Shown here one piece after another: positions 32,770 to 59,092 of a DNA stretch of 64,000 nt; position 1 is the first letter of the stretch; every line of letters starts with the position of its first letter. Under the pieces are notes generated by a model. That model made no database searches and had not been told where the DNA came from. It was given only the letters and a program-made list of their open reading frames with translations. This DNA is from a bacterium (GTDB taxonomy: Bacteria; UBA8248). Position numbers and translations under genes: made by a program. The stretch lies in NCBI GenBank assembly GCA_965221165.1, contig CBDCRP010000003.1, positions 448,001-512,000 on the forward strand, written 5' to 3'.

Positions 32770-32796
32770 CAATCACGACTGATGAAGGAGTGATTG
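32770..32796 (+). repeat. 27-bp GA-capped hairpin repeat
   Basis: CAATCAC-GACTGATGAAGGA-GTGATTG; same loop as the copies at 58.2-59.0 kb. Confidence 0.7.
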
Positions 32797-33009
32797 CAGG
32801 CGGATGAGGAAAAATCGGTCCGTAATTCCTCCTTCTTAGGTGGTTTCCTCCCCCGAAATAACTTGCAAGCAATTCTTCTCCTCTACCGGACCCCCAGATC
32901 CCATCGAGTTTCAAAGCGGTTGTTCACCTGCCAATTTTTCAATGCGACGGAGTCCCTGCATAAAGCAATAAGGGGTTCACGATGCCTGGAAAATTCAGCG
33001 TCTTTTAAT

Positions 33010-34332
33010 CTACCAAAACCGCCCAGCGGGTCGATCGAGCCCATAGTGTTCTCGCAACGTCTTGCCTTTATATTCTGTCCGGAACAGCCCGCGACGCTGA
33101 AGAATCGGAACCACCTCTTCAACAAAAGCATCCAGCATCGTGGGAAAAAGCGGCGGCATCACATTGAAACCATCGGCGGCGCCTTCGCGGAACCAGTCCT
33201 CAATCAGATCAGCGACCTGCTCGGGCGCGCCGGCAAAAGTAAAGTGGCCGCGAGCACCGGCAAAACGGGCAAGAAGCCGGCGCAAAGTAAGGCCTTCGTT
33301 ACGCACAAGATTGACGACCATCTCGGACCGACTACGCATGGTTTCGACACTGGAGGGTGGAGGGAAATCGTCCGGCGACAGCGGCCGGTCCAGCGGCAAA
33401 TGCGAGAAATCATGTCCGTCGAACCGTGAAGAGAGAGTACGGCGACCGATCTCCGGGTCATTATTCTCATTGAGATCCTGTTCCATTCGTTTTGCTTCGG
33501 TCTCGGTCGACGCAATCATCGGGCTCAGACCAGGCAGAATCAGGACCTGGTTTGCATCACGACCTGCTGCGACCGCTCGCTTCTTGATATCCGTGTAAAA
33601 CTTCTGCGCCGTCGCCTTTTCGAGGTGGGCCGTAAATACCGCCTCGGCGTGACGCGAAGCAAAATCACGTCCGGCATCCGACGATCCTGCCTGCACCAGC
33701 ACCGGTCGCCCCTGCGGACTGCGCGGAAGGGTCAGCGGCCCCGCGACGCTATAATACTTGCCGTTAAAGTCGATTGGACAAATTCGATCACTTTTGGCGT
33801 AGACGCCACCGTTACGATCATCAACCACGGCGTCATCGGCCCAACTGTCCCACAAATCTTTGACGACCTGGACAAATTCCTCGGCCATTATGTAGCGGTC
33901 CGCATGACTATCCTGACCCGCATCACCGAAATTGCGCGCGACCTTCGCCATCCAGGTGGTGACGATATTCCAACCGGCACGGCCATTGCTAATGTGATCA
34001 ATCGAGTTAAACTGCCGCGCAAGGTTAAAGGCCTCAGAATATGTGCTCGACCCCGTCGCGATCAGCCCGACCCGCTCGGTTGCGACGGCGAGCGCCGCTA
34101 ATAAAGTTATTGGTTCAAGCCAGATTCGCCCGGACCGCGGAGCATCCGGTGTCAACATCAGTGAATCAGCGAAAAAGATCGAATCAAAAAGCGCCGTCTC
34201 CGCACGTTGAGCTAAATCCACATAGTAGTTTACATCGGTAAGCGAGGCCGTCGAAGAATCGGGATGGTTCCAGGCTGCTTCGTGGTGGCCCCGAGATTGG
34301 ACGAACAAATTGAGGTGAAGTTGCCTAGTCAT
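33010..34332 (-). CDS. LLM-class flavin-dependent monooxygenase (NtaA/DszA/SnaA family)
   Basis: LHLNLF...GHHEAAW, FFAD, DHISNGRAGWNIVT, SPQGRPVLVQAGSS, VVPILQRRGLFR.EY...TLRE. Confidence 0.93.
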   Translation of the reverse strand: MTRQLHLNLFVQSRGHHEAAWNHPDSSTASLTDVNYYVDLAQRAETALFDSIFFADSLMLTPDAPRSGRIWLEPITLLAALAVATERVGLIATGSSTYSEAFNLARQFNSIDHISNGRAGWNIVTTWMAKVARNFGDAGQDSHADRYIMAEEFVQVVKDLWDSWADDAVVDDRNGGVYAKSDRICPIDFNGKYYSVAGPLTLPRSPQGRPVLVQAGSSDAGRDFASRHAEAVFTAHLEKATAQKFYTDIKKRAVAAGRDANQVLILPGLSPMIASTETEAKRMEQDLNENNDPEIGRRTLSSRFDGHDFSHLPLDRPLSPDDFPPPSSVETMRSRSEMVVNLVRNEGLTLRRLLARFAGARGHFTFAGAPEQVADLIEDWFREGAADGFNVMPPLFPTMLDAFVEEVVPILQRRGLFRTEYKGKTLREHYGLDRPAGRFW

Positions 34333-34783
34333 TGAAGATAACGGCTCTCATTAGGGGAAGGCAAGATCATTGAACATCATACCCAATTTACGAACAGGAG
34401 CACAAACTGAGCAAAATCCCATCAAGCCGGCTCTGAAAAGTCCGATTGAAAAATTCATTTATGTATCCTCGTTTTGCTGGATGATTTGTAATTCAAGATT
34501 CACCTAGTGCGTCTCGAAAGATATCTTCCATTTCCTTCTCCAACCAAGCTACAATTTTTTCTTTCCCAAAGCCCTCGTGCGCATAAATCTGTTCGACGAT
34601 GTTGATCATCTTTGGTTGCTTTATTGATGCTGACATAATAATCATTCATTCTTCCAAATCTCATCCGGTATTCGCCTTCCGCATCACGTGAGCGAGTTAC
34701 TATCAGATATGATGTATGACCGTCTTGAATCAAGCGGCCAACCCGCTCCGCCTATCCAACTAGTCAAACCACCAATCCAGAAG

Positions 34784-35674
34784 TCATAAATACTTCTTGA
34801 ACCAGTCGATGGCCTCGACCATGCCGATTTCGTGGTGTTCGGGGCTACAGAAGTAATACGACTCGTAATGCTGGGCGCCCGGGAGCTTGACGATCTTCTT
34901 CGGCTCTCCGCAAGCCTCATAGCAACTGATTTGCTCCTGCACCGGCACGAGAAAATCATTTTCCGAATAGATGAACATAACGGGACGCGGCGCGATTCTG
35001 TCCGCCACCCACTCGGGCTTGTAGCGCCAGCAGGCCTCGGCGCTTTGCAGGTCGTAGTCCTTCACGTAATCGTCGTGTTTCTGGTGATTCTCCTGGATGA
35101 CCTTGAGCGTGTGGGGGTCGCAGATCATGATCTCGGGCAGCGGCATCGTGGTCGGCTCGCCGGTGGCGACGCGCTTGCGGGCGGCCTCCATCACTCGTTT
35201 GTGAAAAGAGTCCCACTCGTGCGGCCTCCTCACAGAGCGCATCCAGCGCTCGCCCTCGTGCACCCCCACGGAGGAGACCACCACCTTCACGCGCTCGTCG
35301 AAGGCCGCCACCCAGATGGCGTTCGCCCCGCCGAAGCTCGTGCCGAAAATGCCGATTCGCTCCGTGTCCACGCCCTCGACCGTCTCCATGTAGGAGATGG
35401 CGTCGTAGGTGTCCTGCGCCTGCTCCAGGGGCCGCTGGCGGCCGCGCGCTCCCTCGCTCTTGCCGAAGCCGCGATGATCGGGCGCAAAGATGAAGTAGCC
35501 CTCCTCCCAGAGGCGTCTGGGAACGTCCATGCCGTAGACCTCCTTCATCCCGCTGTAGCCGTGCAGGCAGATGATGGCGGGACCGGGCGGATCGCCCTCT
35601 CGCCAGCCTTTCGGCGTATAGAGGTGGGAGGCGATTTTGAGGCCGTCGCTGTAGTAAACAATCTCTTCGTACAT
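34784..35674 (-). CDS. Alpha/beta fold hydrolase
   Basis: HGYSG, DHRGFGKSEG, GTSFGG nucleophile elbow, IAPRP, catalytic-position D and H. Confidence 0.9.
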   Translation of the reverse strand: MYEEIVYYSDGLKIASHLYTPKGWREGDPPGPAIICLHGYSGMKEVYGMDVPRRLWEEGYFIFAPDHRGFGKSEGARGRQRPLEQAQDTYDAISYMETVEGVDTERIGIFGTSFGGANAIWVAAFDERVKVVVSSVGVHEGERWMRSVRRPHEWDSFHKRVMEAARKRVATGEPTTMPLPEIMICDPHTLKVIQENHQKHDDYVKDYDLQSAEACWRYKPEWVADRIAPRPVMFIYSENDFLVPVQEQISCYEACGEPKKIVKLPGAQHYESYYFCSPEHHEIGMVEAIDWFKKYL

Positions 35675-35764
35675 GCAGGTTTCCCCTTTAGGCTATGCCG
35701 CGAAAATCGGATTTAACTTAAATTATCAATTCCTTACGGCGAATGCGCCACCGGACATTTCTCG

Positions 35765-36604
35765 CTATTCGACCTCGATGCCCCTCAACTCTCGCAACAA
35801 TTCACCAGAGTCGGGCGCGCGCATGAGCGCCTCGCCGACCAGGATGGCGTCGACCCCCTCATCCACCAGGGGGGCCACCTCCTCCCATCCGAAAATCCCG
35901 CTCTCAGAGACCAGAACGATATCTTCCCTCTGCTCGGGCGTTAGCCGAGCGAATACGCGGGATGTATGCTCCGTATCGACCTCGAAGGTCTTGAGGTTCC
36001 GGTTGTTCACGCCGAGCACGCGGGTTCCGGCTTCCAGGGCGCGCCCGAGTTCTTCCTCGGCATAGACCTCGACGAGCGCGTCCATGCCCAATTCTTCTGT
36101 GAGCGCGCGCAAATCCTCCATCTGCGCCGTTTCGAGGATGGCCGCGATGAGCAAGACGGCGTCCGACCCGCCGGCGCGGGCTTCCAATATCTGGTACTCG
36201 GTGAAAATAAACTCTTTTCTGAGGACGGGGAGAGCCACCGCGTCGCGCACCCCTTCGAGATGAGCCATCTCGCCCAGAAAGCGCCTCCGCTCGGTCAAAA
36301 CCGAAATAGCGGCCGCGCCACCAGCTTCATAAGCTTGGGCGATTTCGGCCGGCTGGAAGCTCTCGGCTATCTGCCCCTGGGAGGGGGAGGCTTGTTTCAC
36401 CTCGGCGATGACGCGCATCAGGCCGCCGTCCGCATCTTCGCCCGAATCGGGCCTCTTTAGCGCGCCCGCAAAATCCACAGTCGGCGGCGCGTCACGCGTC
36501 TGCGATTTGAGATCGGCTTCGGAACGTCTTCTCTTGTCCGAGGCGATGTCCTCTCGGACGCCTTCCACGAGCTTATCCAGAACCGTGTGTGTCGCAATCG
36601 TCAA
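35765..36604 (-). CDS. trpC: Indole-3-glycerol phosphate synthase
   Basis: IAEVKQASPS.G, ISVLTE, LRKEFI, GVNNRNL, VSESGI, LVGEALM. Confidence 0.96.
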   Translation of the reverse strand: MTIATHTVLDKLVEGVREDIASDKRRRSEADLKSQTRDAPPTVDFAGALKRPDSGEDADGGLMRVIAEVKQASPSQGQIAESFQPAEIAQAYEAGGAAAISVLTERRRFLGEMAHLEGVRDAVALPVLRKEFIFTEYQILEARAGGSDAVLLIAAILETAQMEDLRALTEELGMDALVEVYAEEELGRALEAGTRVLGVNNRNLKTFEVDTEHTSRVFARLTPEQREDIVLVSESGIFGWEEVAPLVDEGVDAILVGEALMRAPDSGELLRELRGIEVE

Positions 36605-36652
36605 AATTTCATACTCCCTGGAGAAATCGACAATCTATAGGCTAGCGAAGCC

Positions 36653-36976
36653 GGGCTTGATGAAAAAGTCCTGATTTCGCGATTTGGGATATGTAGCAGA
36701 CCTAGGAGGGAAGAGACTTCATTCCCCTCTTAAGGTTTTTCCCAATTTAGAAGAGGATTCACTCCCCCCTTGAGGGGGAGTCGGTGAGGTGAGGGGGATT
36801 TTGCCCGAAACCGAACCGGTGGGGAGAGTTTTTTCTGTGGCATGTCCCCCCACCGAATCGCTTGCGGGCTTTCGCCCTTAGCTCTTCGACTCCCCCTCAA
36901 GGGGGAGTGATGTCTCCTCTCTCCCAGGTCGGTTCCTTACGACGAATCACGAAATCCGGTCTTTTTCAACAACCCC
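36653..36976. mobile_element. Non-autonomous TIR element, copy 2 (long degenerate palindrome) between trpD and trpC
   Basis: Left arm GGGCTTGATGAAAAAGTCCTGATTTCGCGATT.. aligns over about 80 bp with the reverse complement of the right arm GGGGTTGTTGAAAAAGACCGGATTTCGTGATT..; encloses CTCCCCCCTTGAGGGGGAG / CTCCCCCTCAAGGGGGAG. Confidence 0.7.
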
Positions 36977-37045
36977 CTCAAAGGGGGAGTGGTTTGGCCC
37001 GACCCGCAAGGTCTTTATCAACAACCCAAGCCGCACCCGCCTCAC

Positions 37046-38056
37046 TCAGGAATTTGACACTTCCTCGAGACGCGCCAGAACCCCGGCCGCCTCGCCCGAA
37101 TCTATCGCCGCGGCCGCCTGCGCGACGCCTTCTCTCAGATCCCCCGCCCTGTCCGCGGCGATGAGCGCGGCGGCGGCGTTCAAGAGCACGATGTCGCGCT
37201 TTGGGCCTTTCTCACCGGCGAGGATGGCGCGTGTGATCTCCGCGTTCTCCTCGGGCTCGCCCCCCTTCACGGCGTCCGCGCCTGCGCGTTCCAGGCCCGC
37301 ATCCTCGGGCGTGACGTCATACGTCCTGATCTCGCTCCCGTCCCACTCCGAGACGCGCGAGGAACCGGTGAGCGTCAACTCGTCCATGCCGTCGGAACCA
37401 TGAACGACCAACGCCTTCTGACAGCCCACCTGCCGCAACACGTCCGCCACCAGCTCGGTGAGTTCGGGCGCGTACACGCCCACCAACTGGCTTTGGGCCC
37501 GGGCGGGGTTCGTGAGCGGCCCCATGACGTTGAAGATGCTCCGCATGGCGATCTCGCGCCTCGGACCGATGGCGTGCTTCATCGCGCCGTGGAGCATGGG
37601 CGCGAACAGAAAACCCACGCCCGCCTCGTCGATGCACTCGCCCACCTTCTCGGGCGTGGCCTCGATGTTGACTCCCAGGGCCTTCAATACGTCGGCTGCG
37701 CCCGATTTGCTCGACACCGCGCGGTTGCCGTGCTTCGCCACCGGCTGTCCCGCCGCCGCCACGACGAGGGCGGCGCTCGTGCTGATGTTGAAGGTGTGGG
37801 CGCCGTCGCCGCCCGTGCCCACCACGTCGACCACAAAGGGGTGTTTCGTCTTCACCCACGTCGCCTTGGCCCGCATGGAGCGGACGCTGCCCGCGATCTC
37901 TTCGGGCGTCTCACCCGCCATGCGAAGCGCCACCAGATAGGCGCCTATCTGGGCCTGTGTGGCCTCGCCCGTCATGATGAGGTCCATCACCTTCTCCGCC
38001 TCATCCGCGCTTAAGTGCCGGCCTTCCACGAGCTTTCCGATGGCTTCCTGAATCAT
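37046..38056 (-). CDS. trpD: Anthranilate phosphoribosyltransferase
   Basis: DVVGTGGDG..TFNIST, KHGNRAVSSKSGAAD, FNVMGPLTNP, DGMDE. Confidence 0.97.
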   Translation of the reverse strand: MIQEAIGKLVEGRHLSADEAEKVMDLIMTGEATQAQIGAYLVALRMAGETPEEIAGSVRSMRAKATWVKTKHPFVVDVVGTGGDGAHTFNISTSAALVVAAAGQPVAKHGNRAVSSKSGAADVLKALGVNIEATPEKVGECIDEAGVGFLFAPMLHGAMKHAIGPRREIAMRSIFNVMGPLTNPARAQSQLVGVYAPELTELVADVLRQVGCQKALVVHGSDGMDELTLTGSSRVSEWDGSEIRTYDVTPEDAGLERAGADAVKGGEPEENAEITRAILAGEKGPKRDIVLLNAAAALIAADRAGDLREGVAQAAAAIDSGEAAGVLARLEEVSNS

Positions 38057-38207
38057 GAACGCATATCCTCATAGAGTTGTAGGGTTTTCATTTGTTCCCT
38101 CTGCGTTACAGCCTCAGCGATAGACACGTATTCCCGAAACACGGGTGCCGGAAAGTACGAGAATATCGCCGATTCCGGGCTACCATACCGCGTCCGCGCT
38201 CATTCCC

Positions 38208-38792
38208 TCAAGGCCGCTCGATGGCGCCTTCGAGCGCATTTTTGAGCAGCGCCTTGCCTTCGGGCGAGAGTATGGATTCAGGATGAAACTGAACGCCCGC
38301 AACCGCCATACCCCGGATACGAAGCGCCATGATCTCACCTTCCTCCGTCTCCGCGCATACCTCGATTTCGGAAGGCATGTTCTCGCGCGCAAGCAGGAGG
38401 CTGTGGTATCGCGTCGCCGTCATCGGATTTGAAAGCCCCCGAAAGACGCCCCGCTCGTCGTGGCGAATCTCAGAAGTTTTTCCGTGCATGATCCGCTCGG
38501 CGCGAACGACCTCGCCTCCGAATACCGAGGCAATGGCCTGATGACCCAGGCATACGCCAAGTATGGGGTATTCACCGGCATATCTCTCCACGAGCGGCAT
38601 CGAGAGACCCGCGGATTCGGGCCGCCCCGGCCCAGGGGATATGACGATCAACTCGGGAGCGAGTTCGGCCACCTCATCGAGTTCGAACTGATCGTTTCGC
38701 CACACCGTCACATCCGCGCCCAGTTCGGCCAGATACTGAACGAGGTTGTAAGTGAACGAATCGTAATTATCGATCATCAATACGCGCGTCAT
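38208..38792 (-). CDS. trpG: Anthranilate synthase component II
   Basis: IDNYDSFTYNL, SPGPG, GVCLGHQ, RYHSL, QFHPES. Confidence 0.95.
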   Translation of the reverse strand: MTRVLMIDNYDSFTYNLVQYLAELGADVTVWRNDQFELDEVAELAPELIVISPGPGRPESAGLSMPLVERYAGEYPILGVCLGHQAIASVFGGEVVRAERIMHGKTSEIRHDERGVFRGLSNPMTATRYHSLLLARENMPSEIEVCAETEEGEIMALRIRGMAVAGVQFHPESILSPEGKALLKNALEGAIERP

Positions 38793-38807
38793 GTCGTATT
38801 CTCCGCC

Positions 38808-40343
38808 CTAGGGAAGTCCGCCCCGCGCCACGTCCAGAGCGCGGAGGGAGCCTCGGGCCTTGTTGATGGTTTCCTCGTATTCGAAATCGGGCTTTGAGTC
38901 CGCCACGACGCCCGCCCCCACCTGGAGGTAGAGCTTGCCTCCGCGCGCATAGAGCGTGCGAATCGCGATGCAGGTATCCATGCTTCCGCCAAAACCGAAA
39001 TACCCCACTGCGCCCGAATAGGGGCCCCGGCGCACCGCCTCCATCTCGTCGATGATCTCCATGGCGCGCACCTTGGGCGCGCCCGAGACGGTGCCCGCCG
39101 GAAAGGAGGCCCGCAGCACGTCGAACGCATCCTTGCCCTCGGCCAGTTTTCCCACCACGTTGCTCACGATGTGCATGACGTGGGAGTAGCGCTCCACCAC
39201 CATCTGTTCGGTGACCCGGACCGTGCCGCGCTCACACACGCGGCCGATGTCGTTGCGGCCCAGGTCGACGAGCATGATGTGCTCGGCCCGTTCCTTCTCA
39301 TCGGCGAGCAGTTCATCCGCCAGGGCCCGATCTTCCGCCTCATCGCGCCCGCGCCGACGCGTGCCGGCGATGGGGCGCACCTCGACCTTCTCCCCTTCGA
39401 GCCTTACGAGCACCTCGGGGGATGCGCCCACGAGCGTGACCTCGCCGAGTTCCAGGTAAAACATGTAGGGGGAGGGATTGACCGTTCGCAGCGCCCGGTA
39501 GATGGCGAAAGGGTGCACGTCCAGGGTGCTTTCGAGGCGCTGGGAGAGCACTACCTGAATCGCCTCGCCCGCGTGGATGAGCTCCACCGTATCGGCGACG
39601 ACCTTCTCGAACCCCTCGCGCGTGAAAGACGAGTAAAGGCCCGGCATGTTCTCGACGGGATGCCCGCTACCGCCGTCCAGAGGCGTTTCCTCCGGCTCGT
39701 AAGGCGGGGCGACGGAAGGGCCTCTGAGCTTTTCGATGAGCGCATCGACGCGCGCGCACGCATCCTCGTAGGCGGCCTCGGGGCCGTCATCCGTTATGTG
39801 CGCATGGGCGAGGACGTACATCTTCTGCGCCACGTTGTCGAAGATGATCAGGGACTTCGTGATCATGAAAAGCAGTTCGGGCAGTTCGAGATCGTCATGC
39901 GCATTCTCGGGCAGGCGTTCGATGAAGCGAACCGCGTCATATCCCATGTAACCGATGGCGCCTCCCCAGAACCTCGGCAGACCGGGAAGATCGACGGGTA
40001 TGTACGGCTGTATCAACTGCCTGAGCGCATCGATGGGATCATCGACGGTGAATTCTTCGCTCTCCCCATCCTCCGTGATGCGCACCCGCTTTCCCTTGCT
40101 CTCGAAGATGAGGGAAGGCTCGCTGCCCAAAAAGGTGTATCTCGCCCATTTTTCCCCGCCCTCAACGCTTTCGAGCAAAAACGAGTAGGGACCGTCGACG
40201 ATTTTTAGATAGGCCGACACCGGCGTATCGAGATCGGCGAGGATCTCCCGATAGACCGGAATGATGTTGCCCCGCTCGCAGAGAGCGAGGAAAGTTTCCT
40301 TGTCCGGCGCATGATTTTCTGGGTTCATTTTTCTTCGAGGCAT
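38808..40343 (-). CDS. trpE: Anthranilate synthase component I
   Basis: FLLESVEGG, NPSPYMF, PIAGTR, EHIMLVDLGRND, FPAGTVSGAPK; alternative start at 40328. Confidence 0.96.
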   Translation of the reverse strand: MPRRKMNPENHAPDKETFLALCERGNIIPVYREILADLDTPVSAYLKIVDGPYSFLLESVEGGEKWARYTFLGSEPSLIFESKGKRVRITEDGESEEFTVDDPIDALRQLIQPYIPVDLPGLPRFWGGAIGYMGYDAVRFIERLPENAHDDLELPELLFMITKSLIIFDNVAQKMYVLAHAHITDDGPEAAYEDACARVDALIEKLRGPSVAPPYEPEETPLDGGSGHPVENMPGLYSSFTREGFEKVVADTVELIHAGEAIQVVLSQRLESTLDVHPFAIYRALRTVNPSPYMFYLELGEVTLVGASPEVLVRLEGEKVEVRPIAGTRRRGRDEAEDRALADELLADEKERAEHIMLVDLGRNDIGRVCERGTVRVTEQMVVERYSHVMHIVSNVVGKLAEGKDAFDVLRASFPAGTVSGAPKVRAMEIIDEMEAVRRGPYSGAVGYFGFGGSMDTCIAIRTLYARGGKLYLQVGAGVVADSKPDFEYEETINKARGSLRALDVARGGLP

Positions 40344-51845: not shown

Positions 51846-52679
51846 ATGGCACATCACACAAGACGAAAACTCGGCCAACATTTCCTGCACGAGAAGAAGT
51901 ATCTCACGCAAATCATTGATTTAGCAGATATTACTCCCGGAGAGCATGTGCTTGAAATCGGCGTGGGCGAAGGCGCTCTCACGCGATACCTCCTCAATGC
52001 CGGCGCCATCGTCCACGGCATCGAGATAGACGAAGCCCTCATCCCTGCGCTCAAGAAGATGGAGGATGAGCACGAGAGATTTCATCTGATTCACGGCGAC
52101 GCGCTCACCCTCGACTACGCCGTTCTCCCGGAGAAGATGAAGCTGGTGGCGAATCTGCCCTACCAGGTCGCCTCGGCCATCACCTCGCAAGTTACTAAAA
52201 AGATTGACCAATTTCCTCTCATGGTTTTGATGGTGCAGCGCGAGGTGGGCGGGAGGCTGTGCTCCGAACCAGGTGGAAAAGACTATGGCTCACTCACCCT
52301 TTGGGTGGGGTATCGCTACGAGGTGAAGCTGTGCCAGGTGGTGCCACCGGGCGCGTTTCGCCCGCCGCCCAAGGTCGATTCCGCGATCATGCGCCTCACG
52401 GCGAGAGAGGAACCCCAGGTGGAGGTGGCGGATGAAAATCTCTATTTCCAGATTATTCAGGCGGGTTTCGCCCACCGCAGAAAAACGCTGTTCAATAATC
52501 TCAAATCATTGAATTTACTTGAGTTAAAAGATGTGAACAGATTCTCCTCAAACCCCGAGGCTTTGCGAAACCTTCTTGGAAGAGCAGACATCGACCCCGG
52601 CCGGCGCGCCGAAACCCTGGACGCTCAAGAATTCGCGAGAATTGCCCGAGCCATGGAATCTCTCATGGGTGGTGCGTAG
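51846..52679 (+). CDS. rsmA: 16S rRNA m6,2A1518/1519 dimethyltransferase
   Basis: LGQHFL, LEIGVG.G, VANLPY, F.P.PKVDS, RRKTL.N, RAETL. Confidence 0.95.
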   Translation: MAHHTRRKLGQHFLHEKKYLTQIIDLADITPGEHVLEIGVGEGALTRYLLNAGAIVHGIEIDEALIPALKKMEDEHERFHLIHGDALTLDYAVLPEKMKLVANLPYQVASAITSQVTKKIDQFPLMVLMVQREVGGRLCSEPGGKDYGSLTLWVGYRYEVKLCQVVPPGAFRPPPKVDSAIMRLTAREEPQVEVADENLYFQIIQAGFAHRRKTLFNNLKSLNLLELKDVNRFSSNPEALRNLLGRADIDPGRRAETLDAQEFARIARAMESLMGGA

Positions 52680-52682
52680 ACG

Positions 52683-53567
52683 TTGGCAACCAGAATCTTG
52701 ATTTACCGAATGGGAGCATTCGGGGACACTCTGCTATTGGCTTTATTATTCAAACATTTACGTGCTTACTATGAAAACGTTCACATCACGCTGGCAGCAA
52801 ACCCCAATTATGCAGCCTCACTACTCGACTCGGGGCTGATTCACGAAATTCTCGATGGGGGAGCAGCCCCTTTCCACCTCCTGTTTCACGACCAACCACT
52901 GGAAAACGACGCGTTATATCAACTCATCGAGCCCTACGATACGTGCATGTTCTACACTTCGGACATTTCAGGAGATCTCGCTAAACGGCTGAAATCAAGT
53001 GGGTCGGATAAATTTCAGATCTATCCGCCTTTTCCTCCTGCCTCAGAAGAAATTCACATTTGTGAGTGGATAATGCGTCCTTGGCCATCTTTGGGTCCTA
53101 CCAAGAATGAGAAAGTCACACTGAAATCTTCACAAAAAAATTTAATTTTAGCTGATAAAATATTGAATAAATATGGAATAAAGGATTATTTCTTCATCAT
53201 CCATCCGGGCGGCGGGGGGAAGAACAAATGGGTTCCCCTGAAGATTCTCACCGAAGTCGGGCGAATACATGCGGATGAAACGGGCCATCGATCCATCCTG
53301 GTGGAAGGGCCTGCGGATTCGGTGGCCTGCGGGGAATTTCAAAGGCTTTGGAACGATCCCATCCCGACCTTCAAGGAAGTCCCACCCAAAGTTCTAAGCG
53401 CTATTTTATCAAAATCTTCTGCGTATTTTGGAGGGGATTCCGGCGTTTCTCATCTCGCGTCTCTTTATGCGCCGGACGCCACGATACTTTATGGTCCTTA
53501 TTCCAACATGCGGGTTTGGCACCCCATAGGTTCTCACACGCACTGTGTTCCATGGGAAACAATATGA
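52683..53567 (+). CDS. Glycosyltransferase family 9 (heptosyltransferase-like)
   Basis: R.GAFGD, HPGGG...KW, GGDSGVSHLA, LYGP. Confidence 0.8.
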   Translation: MATRILIYRMGAFGDTLLLALLFKHLRAYYENVHITLAANPNYAASLLDSGLIHEILDGGAAPFHLLFHDQPLENDALYQLIEPYDTCMFYTSDISGDLAKRLKSSGSDKFQIYPPFPPASEEIHICEWIMRPWPSLGPTKNEKVTLKSSQKNLILADKILNKYGIKDYFFIIHPGGGGKNKWVPLKILTEVGRIHADETGHRSILVEGPADSVACGEFQRLWNDPIPTFKEVPPKVLSAILSKSSAYFGGDSGVSHLASLYAPDATILYGPYSNMRVWHPIGSHTHCVPWETI

Positions 53568-53636
53568 GGGGTTGAGTCTTTTTATTCTTTGAGTCTATTT
53601 TTGCCAAGACAGACGAAACCCCAACAAAAACAAACA

Positions 53637-54365
53637 TCAACCAATAAAGTTGGCCAGCCTGCCCCAGCGCGGTGAACCCGAATCTCCGTTCCAAGACCAA
53701 TAAATCATGAAAGCGGAGCCACGGAGTTTATCGTCCCAACACGGCGTAGACCATAACGAACAAGGAAAAGGCAATACAAAAGCATAACCCGCAAAACGGA
53801 CAGGTATATGATTCACACGCTCACCCATTTTCAAAAAACCCCAAAAACGGCTGTCTTGGCTGTTGTTTCGGTTATCCCCAAGCATAAACAGATGATTCAG
53901 CGGGACTTTCTGGGGACCCCATTTACTCTCAAAACCCACGGCGGCATCATTTGGCTTAAACCGCACGTATTTCTCATCCAGAGACGCACATTTTTCCGGC
54001 GTGTTCGGCGTGGCGCAATTGATGAACACTTTTTTTCCGCGAACCATCACCTCCTCGCCCGGCAAAGCTATGACGCGCTTGATGAAATCCCGCCGTTCAT
54101 CTTTAGGAAATCTGAACACGATAATGTCTCCGCGCCTAGGCTTACGGAACCAAAATATGAATTTATTGACCAGTATATGATCTCCGACAAGGAGAGTATT
54201 TTCCATCGACCCCGAGGGTATCTTGAATGCTTGCACCACGAAGGTGCGTACGAACATAGCTAGCAATAAAGCAATGATGATCGCTTCGCTGTATTCACGA
54301 AAAGTTGATTTTGATTTGCGCTTACTCTTCGCGCTCTTGCTCGTTGCTAAACTAGCATCCGACAC
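53637..54365 (-). CDS. lepB: Signal peptidase I
   Basis: IPSGSM..TL..GD, FIKRVI..PG, GDNRNNSQDSRFWG; follows lepA. Confidence 0.95.
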   Translation of the reverse strand: MSDASLATSKSAKSKRKSKSTFREYSEAIIIALLLAMFVRTFVVQAFKIPSGSMENTLLVGDHILVNKFIFWFRKPRRGDIIVFRFPKDERRDFIKRVIALPGEEVMVRGKKVFINCATPNTPEKCASLDEKYVRFKPNDAAVGFESKWGPQKVPLNHLFMLGDNRNNSQDSRFWGFLKMGERVNHIPVRFAGYAFVLPFPCSLWSTPCWDDKLRGSAFMIYWSWNGDSGSPRWGRLANFIG

Positions 54366-54367
54366 AT

Positions 54368-56170
54368 CTACTCCTTGCCCACATCCAAAACCGCCATAAA
54401 TGCCTCCTGAGGCACTTCCACCGTCCCTATATTCTTCATGCGTTTCTTGCCTTCCCGCTGCTTCTCCAGTAGTTTTCGTTTTCGCGTGATATCACCACCA
54501 TAGCATTTCGCCGTAACATCTTTTCTCAACGCCCGAATCGTCTCCCGCGCAATCACCCGGTTCCCAACCGCGGCCTGAATGATGACCTCGAACATTTGCT
54601 TTGGGATAATCTCTTTCATCTTTTGTACCAGCGCTCGACCATGATAATAGGCTTTCTCTTTATGAATGATCGTGGAAAATGGATCGATCGGCTGTCCGTT
54701 CAACAAGATATCCAGCTTTACCACTTCCGCCGAACGGAAATCCAGATGTTCATAATCGAAACTCGCGTATCCGCGGGAAACGGATTTTAATTTGTCATAA
54801 AAATCAAAAAGAATCTCGCTAAAGGGTAGTTCATAGACGATTTGCACTGTGTTTGTATCGATATATTCCATGGAGCGCTGTATACCACGCTTCTCCTGCG
54901 TTAATTTTAGAACGGCACCCACATATTCTGAGGGCACAAGAATAGTTCCCAAAATGAAAGGTTCCTCGATTGCCTCAATCCTTGATAGTTCGGGTAATTT
55001 TGCTGGGCTATCGATTTCCTCTACCGTTGCATCACTAAGCAAAACTCGAAAAATCACCGTCGGGGCCGTGATGATAAGCGTGAGATCATATTCGCGTTCG
55101 AGCCTTTCTCGAATGATTTCCATGTGCAGAAGACCCAAGAATCCACATCTAAAACCAAATCCCAAAGCGACCGAAGTCTCTGGCTCGTAGGTAAAAGCCG
55201 AATCGTTTAGCCTGAGCTTCTCAAGTGCAGTCCTTAAATCTTCATATTCGGCGCTGTCCGCCGCATATAAGCCGCTATATACCATCGCTTTCGGCTCTTG
55301 GAAGCCTTTAATGGCCTGACTCGCAGGTTTGTGGGCAAGCGTAACGGTGTCGCCCACCCGGGTATCGCTCACCTCGCGTATCGAAGCCGACAAGATTCCC
55401 ACTTCACCCGGCCCGAGTTCTTTCACTTTCACTTCATGAGGCGTAAATGTGCTTAAGCTTAAAACTTGGTATTCCTTTCCGGTCGCCATGAACCTGATGA
55501 TATCGCCCTTGCGGATGGTTCCCTCGAACATGCGGAACAAAGGAATAGCTCCCTGGTAGGAATCATACCAGGAATCTATCACGAGCCCTTGCGCGGAACC
55601 TTGTGGCTTTCCTCTTGGAGGTGGAACCCGGTCAACGATCGCTTCAAGCAGGGCTTCCACTCCTTCCCCTTGTTTCGCGCTCACCAGAAGGCATTCTTCC
55701 CTATCAATTCCGATGACATCTTCCACTTGCCTCATCACACGTTCAGGGTCCGCCGCCGGCAAGTCGATTTTGTTGATCACCGGGATAATGGCTAAATCCT
55801 GTCCCAACGCCAGATACGCATTCGCCATCGTTTGCGCCTGGATGCCTTGGGTGGCATCGACCAGCAACAAAGCGCCCTCACAAGCTTGCAGGCTTCTGGA
55901 AACTTCATAGCTGAAATCCACATGACCGGGTGTATCTATGAGATTAAATACATACTCGTCTCCCTGGAGCGATTTATACTGTAAACGAACCGTCGCCGCC
56001 TTGATGGTGATGCCCCTTTCCTGCTCCAAGTCCATAGAATCTAAGACCTGAGACGACATTTCACGCTTTGAAAGCGCCCCGGTCATTTCCAGAATGCGAT
56101 CCGCCAGGGTGGATTTTCCATGATCGATGTGCGCGATGATTGAAAAGTTCCTGATTCGCTCGATGTTCAC
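54368..56170 (-). CDS. lepA: Elongation factor 4
   Basis: [48 protein letters not shown]. Confidence 0.97.
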
Positions 56171-56388
56171 AGCTAGGAAAAATCTCTCTGGGAAGGGAAA
56201 TGGCGCAAATGCCGGAACTGCGTGATTCTAGCCGAAAATCTCATATCCGCTCTTCGATTCCCGAGCGTATGACAAAAACAATTCTCGATAAACCTGCTGA
56301 ATTCCCTCATTACCGAGCGAACACGCTATATCAAACTTGTCCAACCTTGGTCAAATTGATTGCCTCCGGAAATACACGATGTTAGCAT

Positions 56389-57864
56389 ATGCAAAGCGCG
56401 ATGTTTCAGCCGTTTATGCGTATTTCGGACTCAGCGAACAGGGTACACTCAACCATGTGCTACCGCAGCCGACATATTGGTGCCCACCTCTGTCTATTAT
56501 CCACTTTCTTGTTATTCGCAGCGCCCACCGCGGCCGCAACGGCTCATCCCTTTGGTAGTCACCTCATCATCAATGCGGTCAAGAAACTACAACCTTCCGT
56601 CGTGCATATTCGCGTAAAACCAAGAGGAAACGAGGGAAATCCGTTGCTTAACCTCTTCGGCAGAGGCCGCCGAAAGGATAATCCCCCCAAATTTGACCAG
56701 GGCGACGCGCCCTTCAGCGGCCACTACAACGTGGGCGCCGGAATTATTGTCTCAAAAGAAGGCCATATCCTGACGAACCACCACGTCATCAAGAATGCGC
56801 AAGAAATTATGGTCAAACTTCATCGAGGAGAGGAGTTCTCGGCCCGCCTGTTGGGTGTGGATAATAAAACCGACCTTGCGCTACTCAAAATAGAATCGCC
56901 CAAAAAACTCCAGGCGGCGCCTCTCGGCGATTCCGATAAAATTGATGTCGGCCAGTGGGTCTTGGCGATTGGCAGCCCTTTCGGCTTGGCGAATTCCGTA
57001 TCCGTAGGAATCATCAGCGCCAAGGGCCGGGACTTGAAAGAAGGCCCCTTCGATGAATATCTCCAAACCGACGCTTCGATAAACCCGGGCAACTCTGGCG
57101 GACCGCTCGCCAATACGGAAGGGATCGTCATCGGGATAAACACGGCGATATTCTCCAGCGGATCGCGCGCCTGGAGTTTAGGCATCGGTTTCGCCATTCC
57201 GATAAACCAGGCCAAAGCCGTTATCGATTCCCTTCGCCACAAAGGCTATCCCGTGCGAGGCCGGCTGGGTGTGTCTATAGCCGCAGTCCCCCGGCAAGAG
57301 GGGAAAAACCTGGGTCTTACCCGATTCGAGGGAGCCAAGCTCACCGAAGTCACACGCGGCGGCCCTGCCTATCGCGCCGGCCTGCGCAGAGGAGACGTGG
57401 TCGTTGAATTTGACGGAAAATCGATCAGTACATGGCAGAGCCTTCCCCGTATAGTAGCCCGCACGAAACCGGATTCCCTCGTGTTGGTAAAATATTACCG
57501 GGAAAAGCGTCTCGAGAGCGCCTATATACGCATAGGAAGCCGCTCGGAGGCGCTCCATTCGCAAAAGACGACCCTACATCCGCTCATGGGCATGAAGGTA
57601 GAGGCGCTTACCCCGCATCTCGCTCAGCGCTTCGGGTTGCCCTATGAGGAAAACAAACTGGTGGTCTCCTCGATTCTGCGGGGCGGCGTTGCCGAGCGGA
57701 GCGGAATCAGGCCGGGCGACGGCATCGAGGAGGTAAACCACCAGCCCGTGAAATCAATCGAGGAATTTCGCTCGGCAATCGACAAGTCCCGCCTCGAGGG
57801 CTCCGCCCTCCTCCTTTTGAAGAGAAAAGAAACAAACCTCTTCGTCGCCCTTCGCATCAAGTAA
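56389..57864 (+). CDS. degP: Do/DegP-like serine endoprotease with two PDZ domains
   Basis: TNHHV, DLAL, QTDASINPGNSGG catalytic triad; two PDZ domains; start uncertain. Confidence 0.9.
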   Translation: MQSAMFQPFMRISDSANRVHSTMCYRSRHIGAHLCLLSTFLLFAAPTAAATAHPFGSHLIINAVKKLQPSVVHIRVKPRGNEGNPLLNLFGRGRRKDNPPKFDQGDAPFSGHYNVGAGIIVSKEGHILTNHHVIKNAQEIMVKLHRGEEFSARLLGVDNKTDLALLKIESPKKLQAAPLGDSDKIDVGQWVLAIGSPFGLANSVSVGIISAKGRDLKEGPFDEYLQTDASINPGNSGGPLANTEGIVIGINTAIFSSGSRAWSLGIGFAIPINQAKAVIDSLRHKGYPVRGRLGVSIAAVPRQEGKNLGLTRFEGAKLTEVTRGGPAYRAGLRRGDVVVEFDGKSISTWQSLPRIVARTKPDSLVLVKYYREKRLESAYIRIGSRSEALHSQKTTLHPLMGMKVEALTPHLAQRFGLPYEENKLVVSSILRGGVAERSGIRPGDGIEEVNHQPVKSIEEFRSAIDKSRLEGSALLLLKRKETNLFVALRIK

Positions 57865-57871
57865 TATATCC

Positions 57872-58208
57872 CGTTCCTGAACTCCCTCGATACATATCAT
57901 GCTTCTCCCTAAGGTGTGACTTTTCCGTTCGCCTCCCGTGAATTCCCGCACGGAACTTGGTGGTTTTCGTGAAAACGGCCGAAAAAACGCTACGGCCCGC
58001 ACACCCCCCCCCTTAGCCCCGCCGGAGCGAAAAATCCATATAACGCCTTATTTATCAGCTATATAAATTTGCAGATATTTTCGCCTTTTTTCCCTGTTTT
58101 TCCCCTATTTTCACTTTTTTTCATTTATCCGGGGCGAATCGCCCGCCGGGCGGCATCTTGCCACACGCCCGGCCCCACGCCACTGCGCCAAATGCGGGCA
58201 GGCGCGCA
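57872..58208 (-). repeat. Dispersed ~300-bp A-tract/G9 element, copy B
   Basis: Reverse complement is collinear with 16571-16876, with an insertion of about 40 bp at roughly 57927-57965. Confidence 0.8.
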
Positions 58209-58256
58209 CCCCGGTTTTTGCTATCAAACCCGACCGATGAAGGGTTTGCGTCTTTT

Positions 58257-58460
58257 GTAGGGGCCGCCCCTCCTCGGGGCTGCCCCACCGTTCGCGAACC
58301 GCCCACACATATATGCGTCCCGCGCCCTGTCGCCCCCAATACATGGGCCGCATGTATGCGTGGGACGGCCCTGGGGAGGGGTTCCGTCCCCTACAGGTCA
58401 TTCGCGACCGAGGAGGAAGGGTTTGTGACTTTCGTAGGGGCGGACCTATGTGTCCGCCCG
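58257..58460. repeat. GTAG-type REP/REPIN-like cluster
   Basis: GTAGGGG...CCCCTAC pair (58257-58394) and GTAGGGGCGGACCTATGTGTCCGCCC (from 58434); modules shared with 16255-16500. Confidence 0.75.
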
Positions 58461-58599
58461 CCTTTTTTCTGTGATTCTCATTTCCGAGCGAAGAAATAGA
58501 GACGTCATTCCGGTGTCAAACCCGACCGAGGAGGGAGAACAAACCCGACCGATGAGGGGTTGTTGAAAAACCCCTCCCCGCTAAGAATTGACCACTGCC

Positions 58600-58763
58600 G
58601 TCATTCCGGTGTCAGTCCCGACTGAGGAAGGAGGGGCTGCGGAATCCAGTGCCGAGCGGAATGGCAATACTCCGGCTTTTCATCTCCTCGTCATTGGCGG
58701 GAATCAATCAGAAAATAAAAAACAAAGGCAAAACACATGGATTCCGGCATGCGCCGGAATGAC
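58600..58763. repeat. GTCATTCCG..GGAATCCA / TGGATTCCG..CGGAATGAC palindromic repeat
   Basis: Left half at 58600-58648, right half TGGATTCCGGCATGCGCCGGAATGAC at 58738-58763; partial copies at about 16203 and 58504. Confidence 0.7.
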
Positions 58764-58788
58764 GAACAAAGGCAAGAAGCAATCTCTC

Positions 58789-58925
58789 CCTCATCCCGAG
58801 TAGGCGCGCTCGCGCGCCGTATCGAGGGTTTGACCCTACCGAGGAGGGAGGGTCAAACGGGGCCCTTCGATACAAACGCTCCTTTCTCAGTCGCGTTTGA
58901 CCTTCGGCGGCTACTCAGGGTGAGG
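58789..58925. repeat. CCTCATCCCGAGTAG..TCGAGGG / CCCTTCGA..CTACTCAGGGTGAGG palindromic repeat
   Basis: Inverted arms with two GA-capped hairpins inserted. Confidence 0.7.
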
Positions 58926-59092
58926 TCGATACCGCGGCATGCAAGACGAGGGTTTGACGCGACCGATGAGGTCAGTTCCGACTGAGAAAGGAGGAACTGC
59001 ATTTGCGCTCGCTCCCAGGACCGGGTTTTTCAACAACCCCGAGGAGCGAGGGTTTGCCGACCAATGCGGCATGAATTCCGGGTCCCTGCTAT

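What the first reader, a model, noticed from the sequence alone, without database searches (positions are those of the whole stretch)
32770..58999. A ~27-bp hairpin family with covarying stems and a conserved tandem-GA/pentaloop cap (top candidate)
Seen copies: CAATCAC-GACTGATGAAGGA-GTGATTG (32770-32796), CAGTCCC-GACTGAGGAAGGA-GGGGCTG (58613-58639), GTTTGACCC-TACCGAGGAGGGA-GGGTCAAAC (58828-58858), CAAACGC-GACTGAGAAAGGA-GCGTTTG (- strand, 58873-58899), CAGTTCC-GACTGAGAAAGGA-GGAACTG (58973-58999), a shortened CAAACCC-GACCGATGAA-GGGTTTG (58225-58248), and degenerate ones at about 16345-16367 (-), 58406 and 58524. The stems differ in sequence yet stay complementary, mostly CA...TG and always closed by C-G. 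Inside the 13-nt loop, positions 4 and 10 also covary (T-A in four copies, C-G in the others). That implies stem, tandem sheared G.A/A.G, two base pairs, then a GA(G/T)(G/A)A pentaloop. Copies occur on both strands and interrupt arms or loops of other repeat families. Known: tandem GA mismatches stabilise DNA hairpins, and HUH transposases recognise imperfect ssDNA hairpins. Inference: a structure-defined micro-element or protein-binding site that spreads or is regenerated by an unknown mechanism, since plain copying would conserve the stem sequence rather than only its pairing. I do not recognise it as a described family.
Basis: partly seen in the sequence, partly recalled or inferred. Interest (0 to 1): 0.82.

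Follow-up and report, generated by a model that had tools for sequence, protein, structure and literature searches.

The report
Tiny REP-like mobile hairpin family
A 28-base DNA hairpin, with a fixed purine-rich cap and a stem that varies but always stays paired, is scattered through this uncultured Nitrospinota genome and its close relatives, and it behaves like a very small mobile element of the REP kind that lands right after short G-runs, often directly behind stop codons.

Summary
All named copies are present, and the core motif occurs 11 times in the window against 1.5 expected.

**Abundance.** G000 holds 141 hairpins, against 1 for a reversed-pattern control, and 222 cap units in all. 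There are about 45 stem variants.

**Structure.** Covariation is strong: 89.7% of cells pair against 71.2% in shuffles, with 0 of 500 shuffles reaching the observed value. It is also strand-specific: G·T outnumbers A·C 66 to 16.

**Distribution.** Dozens of copies occur in 18 of 22 genomes of one Nitrospinota genus. The 28 other genomes of the phylum have 0-1 each.

**What was added here.**
- The unit is T plus a 27-nt hairpin.
- Empty sites, both paralogous and truly orthologous, show that it arrives whole, 3' of a G-run. That G-run can be a stop codon plus G, the apex of another REP, or the cap of an older copy. About 4-6 nt are replaced.
- Repeated hits at one junction would explain the 22/24-nt arrays.
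- Copies next to stop codons are all in sense orientation: 39 to 0.

**Best reading.** This is a new REP-type single-strand hairpin element, probably moved by the genome's RAYT transposases, of which G000 has three copies. That last step is inferred, because the RAYT genes are flanked by canonical GTAG REPs rather than by this hairpin. No expression data were available.

The parts
32764..32798 (+). Full unit: unpaired tag GGGGGT, hairpin 32770-32796 (stem CAATCAC), then C. It follows a 62-nt repeat module that ends in a G-run.
   Evidence: Model hit 48.8 bits, E 4e-12. Fold.
58219..58250 (+). Short-cap copy: hairpin 58225-58248 with a 10-nt cap. G005 has a hairpin with the same CAAACCC stem and a 12-nt cap at the matching place.
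   Evidence: Weak model hit, 13.7 bits, E 0.12.
58393..58427 (+). Cap unit (58406-58418) with a 3' arm but no 5' arm. This is the 'decapitated' form.
   Evidence: Model hit 24.4 bits.
58511..58559 (+). Cap 58524-58536 with the 5' arm CAAACCC and no matching 3' arm. A second partial unit follows (cap-like 58547-58559).
   Evidence: Model hit 24.5 bits.
58607..58641 (+). Hairpin 58613-58639 (stem with one T·G wobble), sitting in the apical loop of a CGTC-tagged REP-type hairpin (GTCATTCCGG ... CGGAAT).
   Evidence: 8 such sites are filled and 53 have the plain short loop. Model hit 43.6 bits.
58824..58858 (+). Hairpin 58828-58858 with a 9-bp stem and a cap that begins with T.
   Evidence: Model hit 33.3 bits.
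58871..58905 (-). Hairpin 58873-58899 (stem CAAACGC). It is a fixed part of a repeat of about 170-255 bp seen in several genomes.
   Evidence: Model hit 48.9 bits.
58954..59001 (+). Nested pair. An older unit (5' arm TTGACGC 58954-58960, cap cut short at 58961-58971) is followed by T (58972) and the younger hairpin 58973-58999 (stem CAGTTCC).
   Evidence: Paralogue without the younger hairpin at C2:686900-686985. Model hit 44.4 bits.
16341..16375 (-). Decayed copy: 5' arm CAATCCC, cap with one change, 3' arm with three mismatches.
   Evidence: Model hit 24.4 bits.
58262..58288 (-). Context: a canonical GTAG/GTGG-tagged REP whose inner hairpin (stem CAGCCCC type, pentaloop GAGGA) resembles the family without the GACY/RGGA insert.
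   Evidence: Shortened model match 17.5 bits. The same REP type flanks RAYT genes.

Best explanation
The hairpins are a clade-restricted family of REP-type miniature mobile elements.

**The unit.** It is T plus a 27-nt hairpin, often followed by C. The hairpin is a 7-bp stem closed by C-G, a 2x2 purine internal loop (GA opposite GA), two pairs and a pentaloop.

**How it works (shown).**
- It functions as one single strand, the strand that carries the purine cap.
- It arrives as a whole unit immediately 3' of a short G-run preceded by purines. That G-run can be:
  - the G's that follow a native stop codon
  - the apex of other palindromic repeats (GTAG and CGTC REPs)
  - the GAGGG inside the cap of an earlier copy
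- About 4-6 target bases are replaced at the 3' side.

**How it works (inferred).**
- Each insertion leaves the G-run in place, so the same junction can be hit again. The older copy then loses its 5' arm, and this builds the 22/24-nt arrays of cap plus 3' arm plus linker.
- Stems drift by mutation, but only copies that still fold are propagated. Pairing is therefore kept while sequence is not.
- The most likely mover is a RAYT (REP-associated HUH Y1 transposase), of which G000 has three copies. I put that step at about 0.35.
For: **Abundance and range**
- 141 hairpins in G000 against 1 for a reversed-pattern control.
- 222 cap units in G000.
- 18 of 22 congeners have dozens of copies. The 28 other genomes of the phylum that were scanned have 0-1 each.

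**Structure**
- 89.7% of cells pair against 71.2 +/- 0.8 in shuffles (0 of 500 reach it). The covariation score is 0.546 against 0.07-0.14 for slid controls.

**One active strand**
- Cap pair 4-10 shows T·G 16 against C·A 1 in G000, and 15 against 3 in other genomes.
- Stem mismatches show G·T 24 against A·C 10 in G000, and 42 against 6 in other genomes.

**Location like REPs**
- 131 of 166 copies are intergenic. 55 lie between convergent genes, 62 between tandem genes and 14 between divergent genes.

**Sharp borders**
- Position -8 is T in 132 of 141 copies, and position -9 is G in 125 of 141. There is no conservation further out.

**Empty and filled sites**
- Six paralogous host families show it, for example ...GAGGG|GGAG|TAGCAG against ...GAGGG|T+hairpin|TAGCAG.
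- Occupancy of host sites: 8 filled, 18 closed by the plain palindrome and 14 holding a different hairpin; 8 filled against 53 plain; 3 filled against 8 plain.
- Three orthologous gene ends show a native stop codon and G-run in all six genomes, with the hairpin in only some. At one TAG the site holds two different hairpin variants, a GTAG REP, or nothing.

**Turnover**
- 0 of 8 syntenic gaps are shared with G007.
- 1 of 12 is shared with G005.

**Arrays**
- In 34 heterogeneous array units the base before the closing C pairs with the following arm in 85% of cases, against 51 +/- 8% in shuffles.
- 4-nt linkers such as ACGC, TCGC and TTCC equal the ends of known 5' arms.

**The REP habit at stop codons**
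- The hairpin starts 1-10 nt after the stop of a long ORF in 16 cases in G000 and 23 of 210 hairpins elsewhere. All 39 are in sense orientation and none in antisense.
- GTAG REP termini are reported to supply TAG stops (PMC3733652, passage read).

**RAYT**
- G000 has three genes that match NCBIfam 'REP-associated tyrosine transposase' at E 1e-19 (70 bits, below the cut-off of 80) and Pfam Y1_Tnp just over its cut-off.
- Homologues occur in 16 of 17 hairpin-rich genomes and in 2 of 6 hairpin-poor ones (Fisher p 0.008; kin are not independent).
- The E. coli RAYT needs a 2x2 mismatch in the middle of its REP hairpin for binding (PMC3479197, passages read). That is the same architecture as here.
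Against: **Against RAYT as the mover**
- RAYT genes are flanked by canonical GTAG REPs, not by this hairpin. In 20 RAYT loci (65 kb) there are 149 GT[AG]G hairpins but only 9 cap units, and those lie in 5 loci.
- The 5' tag is GRRGGT, not GT[AG]G. GTAG lies within 9 nt in 9 of 141 copies and GTGG in 25 of 141.
- G010 has 52 motif hits but no RAYT with this query.

**Against peel-and-paste transposition**
- That mechanism should not delete target bases, yet 4-6 nt are missing in the filled sites.
- IS200/IS605-type elements favour one replication strand, but none is seen here: 61 against 71.

**Weak or missing support**
- Support for the array model from 4-nt linkers is weak. 5 of 15 units are fully paired, against a shuffled mean of 1.9 and a maximum of 5.
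- The commonest linker, CC, does not fit every arm. The long 13-unit array on C1 has arm GAGGCTG.
- Some stem variety at one host site could come from change in place rather than separate insertions.
- Gene calls are my own crude heuristic.
- No strain-level filled and empty alleles were seen, and no expression data.
Confidence: 0.6

Rival explanations
1. The element is mainly an RNA element. Transcribed in the 3' end of mRNAs, the very stable capped hairpin would block exonucleases, bind a protein, or stall terminating ribosomes. Selection on that function would keep the fold. This is compatible with mobility, so it is a rival only as the main reason the fold is kept.
For: - All copies next to stop codons are in sense orientation: 39 to 0.
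- As RNA, the cap strand folds at -10.4 to -14.4 kcal/mol. The complement folds at -6.0 to -8.3.
- G·U-type wobbles are tolerated 66 to 16 over A·C.
- The copies are enriched downstream of genes.
- REPs are reported to affect mRNA stability, termination and translation (PMC6006769, passages read).
Against: - Away from stop codons there is no orientation bias: 31 against 31 in tandem-gene spacers, and 24 sense against 28 antisense at 100-400 nt.
- The sense-only rule at stops follows from the target itself, which is a stop codon plus G on the coding strand.
- Turnover between species at about 90% identity is almost complete.
- Copies sit inside other repeats and in arrays of decapitated units.
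- No Rfam match.
Confidence: 0.15
2. No dedicated enzyme is involved. The units would be copied by replication template switching at microhomology (a nascent end ...GAGGG jumps to another copy). Stems would be kept perfect by quasi-palindrome correction, and arrays would grow by slippage between the directly repeated caps.
For: - The 5' junction is always a short homology shared by donor and target (G-run or GAGGG).
- Target bases are replaced rather than duplicated.
- One orthologous site differs by exactly one 22-nt unit and another by one 24-nt unit.
- There is no replication-strand bias.
- No hairpin-flanked gene was found.
- Quasi-palindrome correction itself is recalled knowledge. No paper on it was read here.
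Against: - The strand asymmetry of wobbles (66 to 16) is not expected from a strand-neutral copying error.
- The 3' border is sharp without any homology there.
- A T·G wobble in one variant stays uncorrected at 98-100% identity across species.
- The cap is conserved across a whole clade.
Confidence: 0.15
3. The caps are double-strand binding sites for a DNA-binding protein (iteron- or nucleoid-type), and the stems are incidental.
For: Tandem arrays of up to 13 caps at 22-bp spacing.
Against: - Covariation inside the cap and in the stems, with G·T favoured on one strand only, has no meaning in duplex DNA.
- The arrays lie between ordinary metabolic genes.
Confidence: 0.03

Closest known systems
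REP / BIME / REPIN elements with RAYT (TnpA-REP, HUH Y1) transposases
   Same: - Short, high-copy extragenic hairpins with an unpaired 5' tag.
- A basal stem, an internal mismatch, a second stem and a small loop.
- Mostly between convergent and tandem genes.
- Clustered in mosaics with other repeats.
- Compensatory arm changes.
- RAYT genes in the same genome.
- The E. coli enzyme depends on a 2x2 mismatch in the hairpin (PMC3479197; PMC6006769; PMC3116915).
   Different: - The tag is GRRGGT, not GT[AG]G.
- The conserved part is the cap, while the stem is the variable part.
- The unit is only 28-29 nt.
- RAYT genes here are flanked by GTAG REPs, not by this hairpin.
- Target bases are replaced.
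- Stacked arrays of decapitated units occur.
GTAG- and CGTC-tagged REP superfamilies (Di Nocera et al. 2013, PMC3733652; abstract and sections 6, 7 and one passage of 15 read)
   Same: - Tagged palindromes that sit downstream of ORFs.
- They can supply or abut the TAG stop codon.
- They can be inserted in other palindromes.
[quoted passage not shown]
- Both superfamilies are present in this genome.
   Different: - This family fits neither tag.
- It carries a 13-nt structured cap instead of a 4-5-nt loop.
- It uses those two REP types as insertion sites.
IS200/IS605 insertion sequences and their miniature derivatives
   Same: - Single-strand hairpin recognition.
- Insertion 3' of a short specific sequence.
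- No target duplication.
   Different: - One hairpin instead of distinct left and right end hairpins.
- No replication-strand bias: 61 against 71.
- Loss of 4-6 target bases.
- No TnpB in G000.
Small dispersed repeats (SDR) of Nostoc (Elhai et al. 2008, Genome Res 18:1484)
   Same: As recalled, these are 21-27-nt hairpin-capable mobile repeats with no known mover, often nested in other repeats.
   Different: I could not compare them. The paper is not held and I saw only its citation in PMC3116915. No sequence relation is claimed.

Membership tests
REP / REPIN-RAYT system | Short imperfect palindrome (about 20-65 nt), many copies, extragenic | tested here: met
   27-nt hairpin. 141 copies in G000 against 1 control. 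131 of 166 are intergenic.
REP / REPIN-RAYT system | Unpaired GT[AG]G tetranucleotide 0-2 nt 5' of the hairpin foot (PMC6006769) | tested here: not met
   The consensus tag is GRRGGT. GTAG lies within 9 nt in 9 of 141 copies and GTGG in 25 of 141 in G000. In other genomes the counts are 19 and 21 of 210.
REP / REPIN-RAYT system | Basal stem of 7-20 bp, then either a loop or a second stem behind a small mismatch or bulge | tested here: met
   7-bp stem, 2x2 internal loop, 2 bp and a 5-nt loop, in the folds and in the covariation counts.
REP / REPIN-RAYT system | The RAYT gene is flanked by the repeat it mobilises (REPtron) | tested here: not met
   In 20 RAYT loci, cap units occur in 5 loci (9 units) against 149 GT[AG]G hairpins. 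One G000 RAYT lies about 180 bp from a five-unit array.
REP / REPIN-RAYT system | A RAYT is present in genomes that carry the repeat | tested here: inconclusive
   16 of 17 hairpin-rich genomes have a RAYT and 2 of 6 hairpin-poor ones do. The two groups are separate clades, so the counts are not independent.
REP / REPIN-RAYT system | Preference for spacers between convergent and co-directional genes | tested here: met
   55 convergent, 62 tandem and 14 divergent. Intergenic bases are 100,622, 277,405 and 110,091 respectively.
REP / REPIN-RAYT system | Cleavage and strand transfer of the single-stranded repeat by the RAYT | not testable with these tools
   This needs biochemistry.
IS200/IS605-type single-strand transposition | Insertion 3' of a fixed short target, without duplication and without loss | tested here: inconclusive
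   The 5' junction is fixed (G-run) and no duplication is seen, but 4-6 nt are missing in the filled sites.
IS200/IS605-type single-strand transposition | Orientation bias with respect to the replication fork | tested here: not met
   61 against 71 within regions of one GC-skew sign, p 0.43.
Described RNA families (Rfam 15) | A match at the family's gathering score | tested here: not met
   Only a tRNA passes in the window. In 57900-59300 the six sub-threshold matches have E 0.5-5.5.
Kink-turn / K-loop RNA motif | Tandem G·A pairs next to a 3-nt bulge or a terminal loop | tested here: not met
   The predicted fold puts the GA/GA loop symmetrically between two helices, with no bulge. This is a prediction only.

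The most novel reading that the evidence does not exclude
The hairpin could be a new class of self-targeting 'nano-transposon'. Its recognition element would be the structured cap, not the stem or a GTAG tag. It would be moved either by an enzyme not yet recognised or by a second specificity of RAYTs. The chemistry would replace a few target bases instead of duplicating them. Because the target is regenerated, each array would be a stacked, time-ordered record of successive insertions at one junction.
Probability: 0.25. Interest if true: 0.75.

Novelty: new variant of a known kind. Interest (0 to 1): 0.55.

Why it matters
**For mobile-element biology.** How REP-type repeats spread is still largely unproven. 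This family offers unusually clean handles on that question:
- a 28-nt unit with exact borders
- a short definable target
- true empty sites at orthologous gene ends
- stacked arrays

It also shows a case in which the cap is conserved and the stem is free. That points to recognition of an internal purine mismatch, as in the E. coli RAYT-REP complex. Three RAYT paralogues and several REP types in one genome would allow a direct test of which enzyme moves which hairpin.

**For annotation.** At least 16 G000 genes have a very stable hairpin 1-10 nt behind their stop codon. This could affect termination or mRNA decay.

**For assembly.** The repeats inflate intergenic spacers more than tenfold between sister species: 1,228 bp against 86-110 bp. 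That bears on the assembly of these uncultured symbionts.

Tried and rejected
**Candidate movers checked**
- Reverse transcriptase: one group II intron-type RT in G000. Found in only 10 of 23 congeners and absent from the hairpin-rich G005, G007 and G017. Rejected.
- IS110: two copies. One lies between two hairpins but is inserted in a different repeat. Rejected.
- TnpB: none in G000.
- Genes flanked by hairpins on both sides in G000: six, none transposase-like by eye.
- ORFs recurring next to hairpins in 95 loci of other genomes: only translations of the repeats themselves.

**A false negative, corrected.** The Pfam Y1_Tnp genome scan gave 0 hits in G000. That was a false negative. A protein query found three RAYT genes. 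The lack of correlation I first read is withdrawn.

**Searches with no result**
- Plasmid collection search with contig C1: no match.
- Viral contigs: 0 matches to the hairpin pattern.
- Sequencing runs: no RNA holder listed.
- Laying contigs of four runs showed only high depth over 58.0-59.3 kb. No usable joint lay at a hairpin among the 15 joints shown; 600 more were not shown.

**Cross-species spacer alignments.** Alignments of whole spacers with G007, G022 and G005 were uninformative because the spacers are replaced wholesale.

**Other notes**
- A fuzzy-regex search for empty sites timed out. A BLAST of the flanks replaced it.
- The iteron reading of the 13-unit array was dropped, because the neighbouring genes are ordinary metabolic genes.
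- The 36699 core match has no stem and is probably chance.
- The Elhai 2008 paper is not held. Supplementary files of the papers were not opened, and they may list REP families that I could not compare.

Full report
**Observation.** The 13-nt core with up to one mismatch occurs 11 times in the window. The mean over 100 dinucleotide-preserving shuffles is 1.49 and the maximum is 6. Rfam gives only a tRNA at gathering score, and nothing near threshold in 57900-59300.

The window is C3:448001-512000 of a 3.69-Mb, three-contig genome.
- Genome-wide there are 116 exact cores. 47 of them have a perfect 7-bp flanking stem and 20 have one mismatch.
- A looser skeleton fixes only the invariant cap letters and allows up to one stem mismatch. 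It finds 141 hairpins, against 1 for the same pattern read backwards.
- About 45 different 5' arms occur.
- A covariance model built on 150 units recovers five strong and three weaker copies in the window.

**Structure.** I chose 150 distinct 35-nt units from the window and from loci of other genomes. The choice used the cap and its closing C/G only, not stem pairing.
- On these units, 89.7% of cells form standard pairs, against 71.2 +/- 0.8% in shuffles (0 of 500 reach it).
- 8 of 9 pairs change on both sides.
- The covariation score is 0.546, against 0.07-0.14 when partners are slid by 1-3 columns.
- Caveat: the loci were fished with a pattern that fixes three of the seven stem pairs, and copies are related.

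Folding four window copies gives the same minimum-energy structure as DNA and as RNA: a 7-bp stem, a 2x2 GA/GA loop, two pairs and a pentaloop. The cap strand is more stable than its complement, most clearly as RNA (-10.4 to -14.4 against -6.0 to -8.3 kcal/mol).

The signal is strand-specific.
- At cap pair 4-10, T·G outnumbers C·A 16 to 1 in G000 and 15 to 3 elsewhere.
- Among stem mismatches, G·T outnumbers A·C 24 to 10 in G000 and 42 to 6 elsewhere.

Duplex DNA cannot explain this, so the element matters as one single strand, either DNA or RNA. One subfamily has T opposite T at cap pair 3-11 (5 of 141 in G000, 14 of 145 elsewhere), so that pair is not strict.

**Where it occurs.** Titles of the public contigs that match name Nitrospinota or Nitrospinaceae MAGs, or unlabelled MAGs. 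Among 51 genomes of the phylum, 18 of 22 genomes of the window's own genus have 24-107 motif hits. The other four congeners and 28 genomes of other genera have 0-1. The reversed pattern gives 0-2 per strand. Viral contigs have none.

Using my own crude gene calls:
- 131 of 166 copies are intergenic, in a genome that is 86-87% coding.
- 55 lie in convergent spacers, 62 in tandem spacers and 14 in divergent ones.
- In tandem spacers orientation is 31 to 31.
- There is no bias with respect to GC skew: 61 to 71.

**Borders and insertion sites.** Aligning all 141 copies shows conservation only from six bases upstream (G-R-R-G-G-T) to one base downstream (C in 90 of 141). T at -8 occurs in 132 of 141 and G at -9 in 125 of 141. 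66 of 141 copies have unique flanks on both sides, and these carry 28 different stems. The hairpin is therefore a unit of its own, although other copies ride inside larger repeats.

I searched the genome with the flanks of each hairpin and found paralogous sites that lack it. In six host families the pattern is the same. The host sequence runs up to a G-run. Then the filled copy has T plus the 27-nt hairpin, where the empty copy has 4-5 other bases. Then the host sequence resumes. The hosts are:
- an abundant palindrome ending ...TTGAGGG: 8 sites are filled, 18 closed by the plain palindrome, and 14 hold a different hairpin
- the apical loop of a CGTC-tagged REP-like hairpin: 8 filled against 53 plain
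- a GTAG REP: 3 filled against 8 plain
- the cap of an older copy of the family itself, which includes the nested pair at window 58954-59001

Neither arm is present in any empty site, so the arms are not derived from the target.

**Orthologous evidence.** Whole spacers cannot be aligned between species at about 90% identity. Of 8 syntenic gaps that hold a hairpin in G000 or G007, none is shared. Of 12 such gaps with G005, one is shared, and it differs by one extra 24-nt unit. The spacer 57865-59092 is 1,228 bp here, about 86-110 bp in four relatives, and intermediate in G005.

Gene ends do align.
- Behind one gene, TAG plus five G's is native in G000 and G005. G000 alone has T plus hairpin after it.
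- Behind a second gene, the same TAG is followed by a five-unit array in G000, by a hairpin with another stem in G020 and G013, by a GTAG REP that uses that TAG in G022, and by neither in G007 and G005.
- Behind a third gene, G013 keeps an older 5' arm. Its partner survives in G000 as an orphan 3' arm, downstream of a younger intact hairpin. G007 and G022 have exactly one 22-nt unit fewer.

**Stop codons.** In G000, 16 hairpins start 1-10 nt after the stop codon of a long ORF. All 16 are in sense orientation; within 60 nt the count is 22 to 2. In other genomes, 23 of 210 hairpins do the same, against 0 in the mirrored test. The stop is TAG in 18 of those 23.

The stop codon simply takes the place of the purines before the G-run, as in TAG-GT, TGA-GGGT or TAA-GGGGT. 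A target of the form 'purines plus GG' read on the coding strand explains both the orientation and the excess of TAG. Selection or an RNA-level effect may add to it. The same habit is described for GTAG REPs (PMC3733652).

**Arrays.** Caps also occur in direct arrays with periods of 22 or 24 nt: cap, 3' arm, then a linker such as CC, ACGC, TCGC, TCCC or TTCC. Only the first unit has a 5' arm.

If a new unit lands at the same G-run and replaces T plus the first bases of the old 5' arm, the last 2-4 bases of that arm remain as the linker. Three results bear on this:
- In 34 heterogeneous units, the base before the closing C pairs with the following arm in 85% of cases, against 51 +/- 8% after shuffling.
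- For 4-nt linkers the support is weak: 5 of 15 are fully paired, against a shuffled mean of 1.9 and a maximum of 5.
- The CC linker of the 13-unit array on C1 does not fit its arm, so slippage must also contribute.

**Who moves it.** No gene is bracketed by the hairpins. A group II intron RT, IS110 and TnpB were checked and dropped.

A Pfam genome scan missed RAYTs in G000. A RAYT from a congener then found three paralogues at C2:920-928 kb.
- They match NCBIfam REP-associated tyrosine transposase at E 1e-19 (70 bits, below the cut-off of 80, in two stretches).
- They match Pfam Y1_Tnp just above its cut-off.
- They and their relatives are flanked by canonical GTAG REPs.
- Cap units occur in only 5 of 20 RAYT loci.
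- RAYT homologues are found in 16 of 17 hairpin-rich and 2 of 6 hairpin-poor congeners. The two groups are separate clades.

The GTAG REPs share the stem type and the GAGGA pentaloop, and the covariance model hits them as shortened matches. One REP variant has a cap-like loop. They also use the same insertion sites.

In the solved E. coli complex, the RAYT binds a hairpin interrupted by a 2x2 mismatch, and correcting that mismatch abolishes binding (PMC3479197). The conserved GA/GA loop here is the obvious counterpart. I therefore read the family as a REP derivative, most likely moved in trans by a RAYT. I mark that step as inferred.

**Against this reading.**
- The tag differs from GT[AG]G.
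- Target bases are lost.
- There is no replication-strand bias.
- One hairpin-rich genome shows no RAYT with this query.

**Comparison and novelty.** The family works like a REP. It fails two defining tests of membership: the GT[AG]G tag, and RAYT genes flanked by the repeat. It is best filed as a new variant of that kind: cap-conserved, stem-free, 28 nt, self-targeting.

Searches for Nitrospinota together with repeat, REP, RAYT or REPIN terms found no description. A search on small dispersed repeats led to the REPIN and HUH papers. The Nostoc SDR paper is not held.

Earlier notes of this scan describe hairpin families with a constant loop and swappable arms in other genomes. I did not test them.

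No RNA run was available, so expression is open.

Noticed in passing
window 58599-58768: A repeat of about 170 bp bounded by inverted CGTCATTCCGG / CCGGAATGACG ends. These fit the CGTC-tagged REP type of Di Nocera et al. 53 plain copies of the end hairpin were counted in G000.
   Followed up: partly
window 58258-58291, 58436-58465 and 16493-16519: Canonical GTAG/GTGG-tagged REP hairpins. The one at 58436-58465 is followed by a T-run and looks like a terminator.
   Followed up: partly
window 57865-59092: The spacer between a DegP/HtrA-type protease gene and an HD-domain dGTPase-like gene is 1,228 bp of stacked repeats here. It is only about 86-110 bp in four sister species.
   Followed up: yes
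G000 C2:920028-928415 (outside the window): Three RAYT-like genes lie within 8.4 kb and are 78-86% identical to each other. The whole-genome Pfam scan missed them. They match NCBIfam REP_Tyr_transpos in two separate stretches. The G012 homologue visibly carries REP-derived sequence inside its ORF.
   Followed up: partly
G000 C3:1620094-1621471 and C3:1254614-1255986: Two IS110-family elements, 79% identical. The first is inserted inside another intergenic repeat family, which also occurs at window 58295-58380.
   Followed up: partly
G000 C3:1275954-1277927: Group II intron-type reverse transcriptase (RVT_1 plus a weak, below cut-off GIIM match). It is patchy among congeners, and several copies carry stop codons.
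   Followed up: partly
G000 contigs C2 and C3: GC skew on the given strand is negative over all of C2 and over C3 150-2,050 kb. The two contigs therefore look like the two replichores laid in opposite senses.
   Followed up: no
G000, whole genome (crude gene calls): TAG closes 1,082 of 3,333 called ORFs (32%), which is high for a 59% G+C genome. REP-type tags that abut or supply TAG may contribute.
   Followed up: no
L099:1060-1215 (G012): Three hairpins of a GATTG..AATGA cap subfamily lie inside a tandem repeat of about 64 bp, roughly 240 bp from a RAYT gene. This subfamily has T opposite T at cap pair 3-11.
   Followed up: no
window 32548-32714: A further repeat of about 165 bp is dispersed in many congeners at 75-99% identity. 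It lies next to the 62-nt module that precedes the 32770 hairpin.
   Followed up: no
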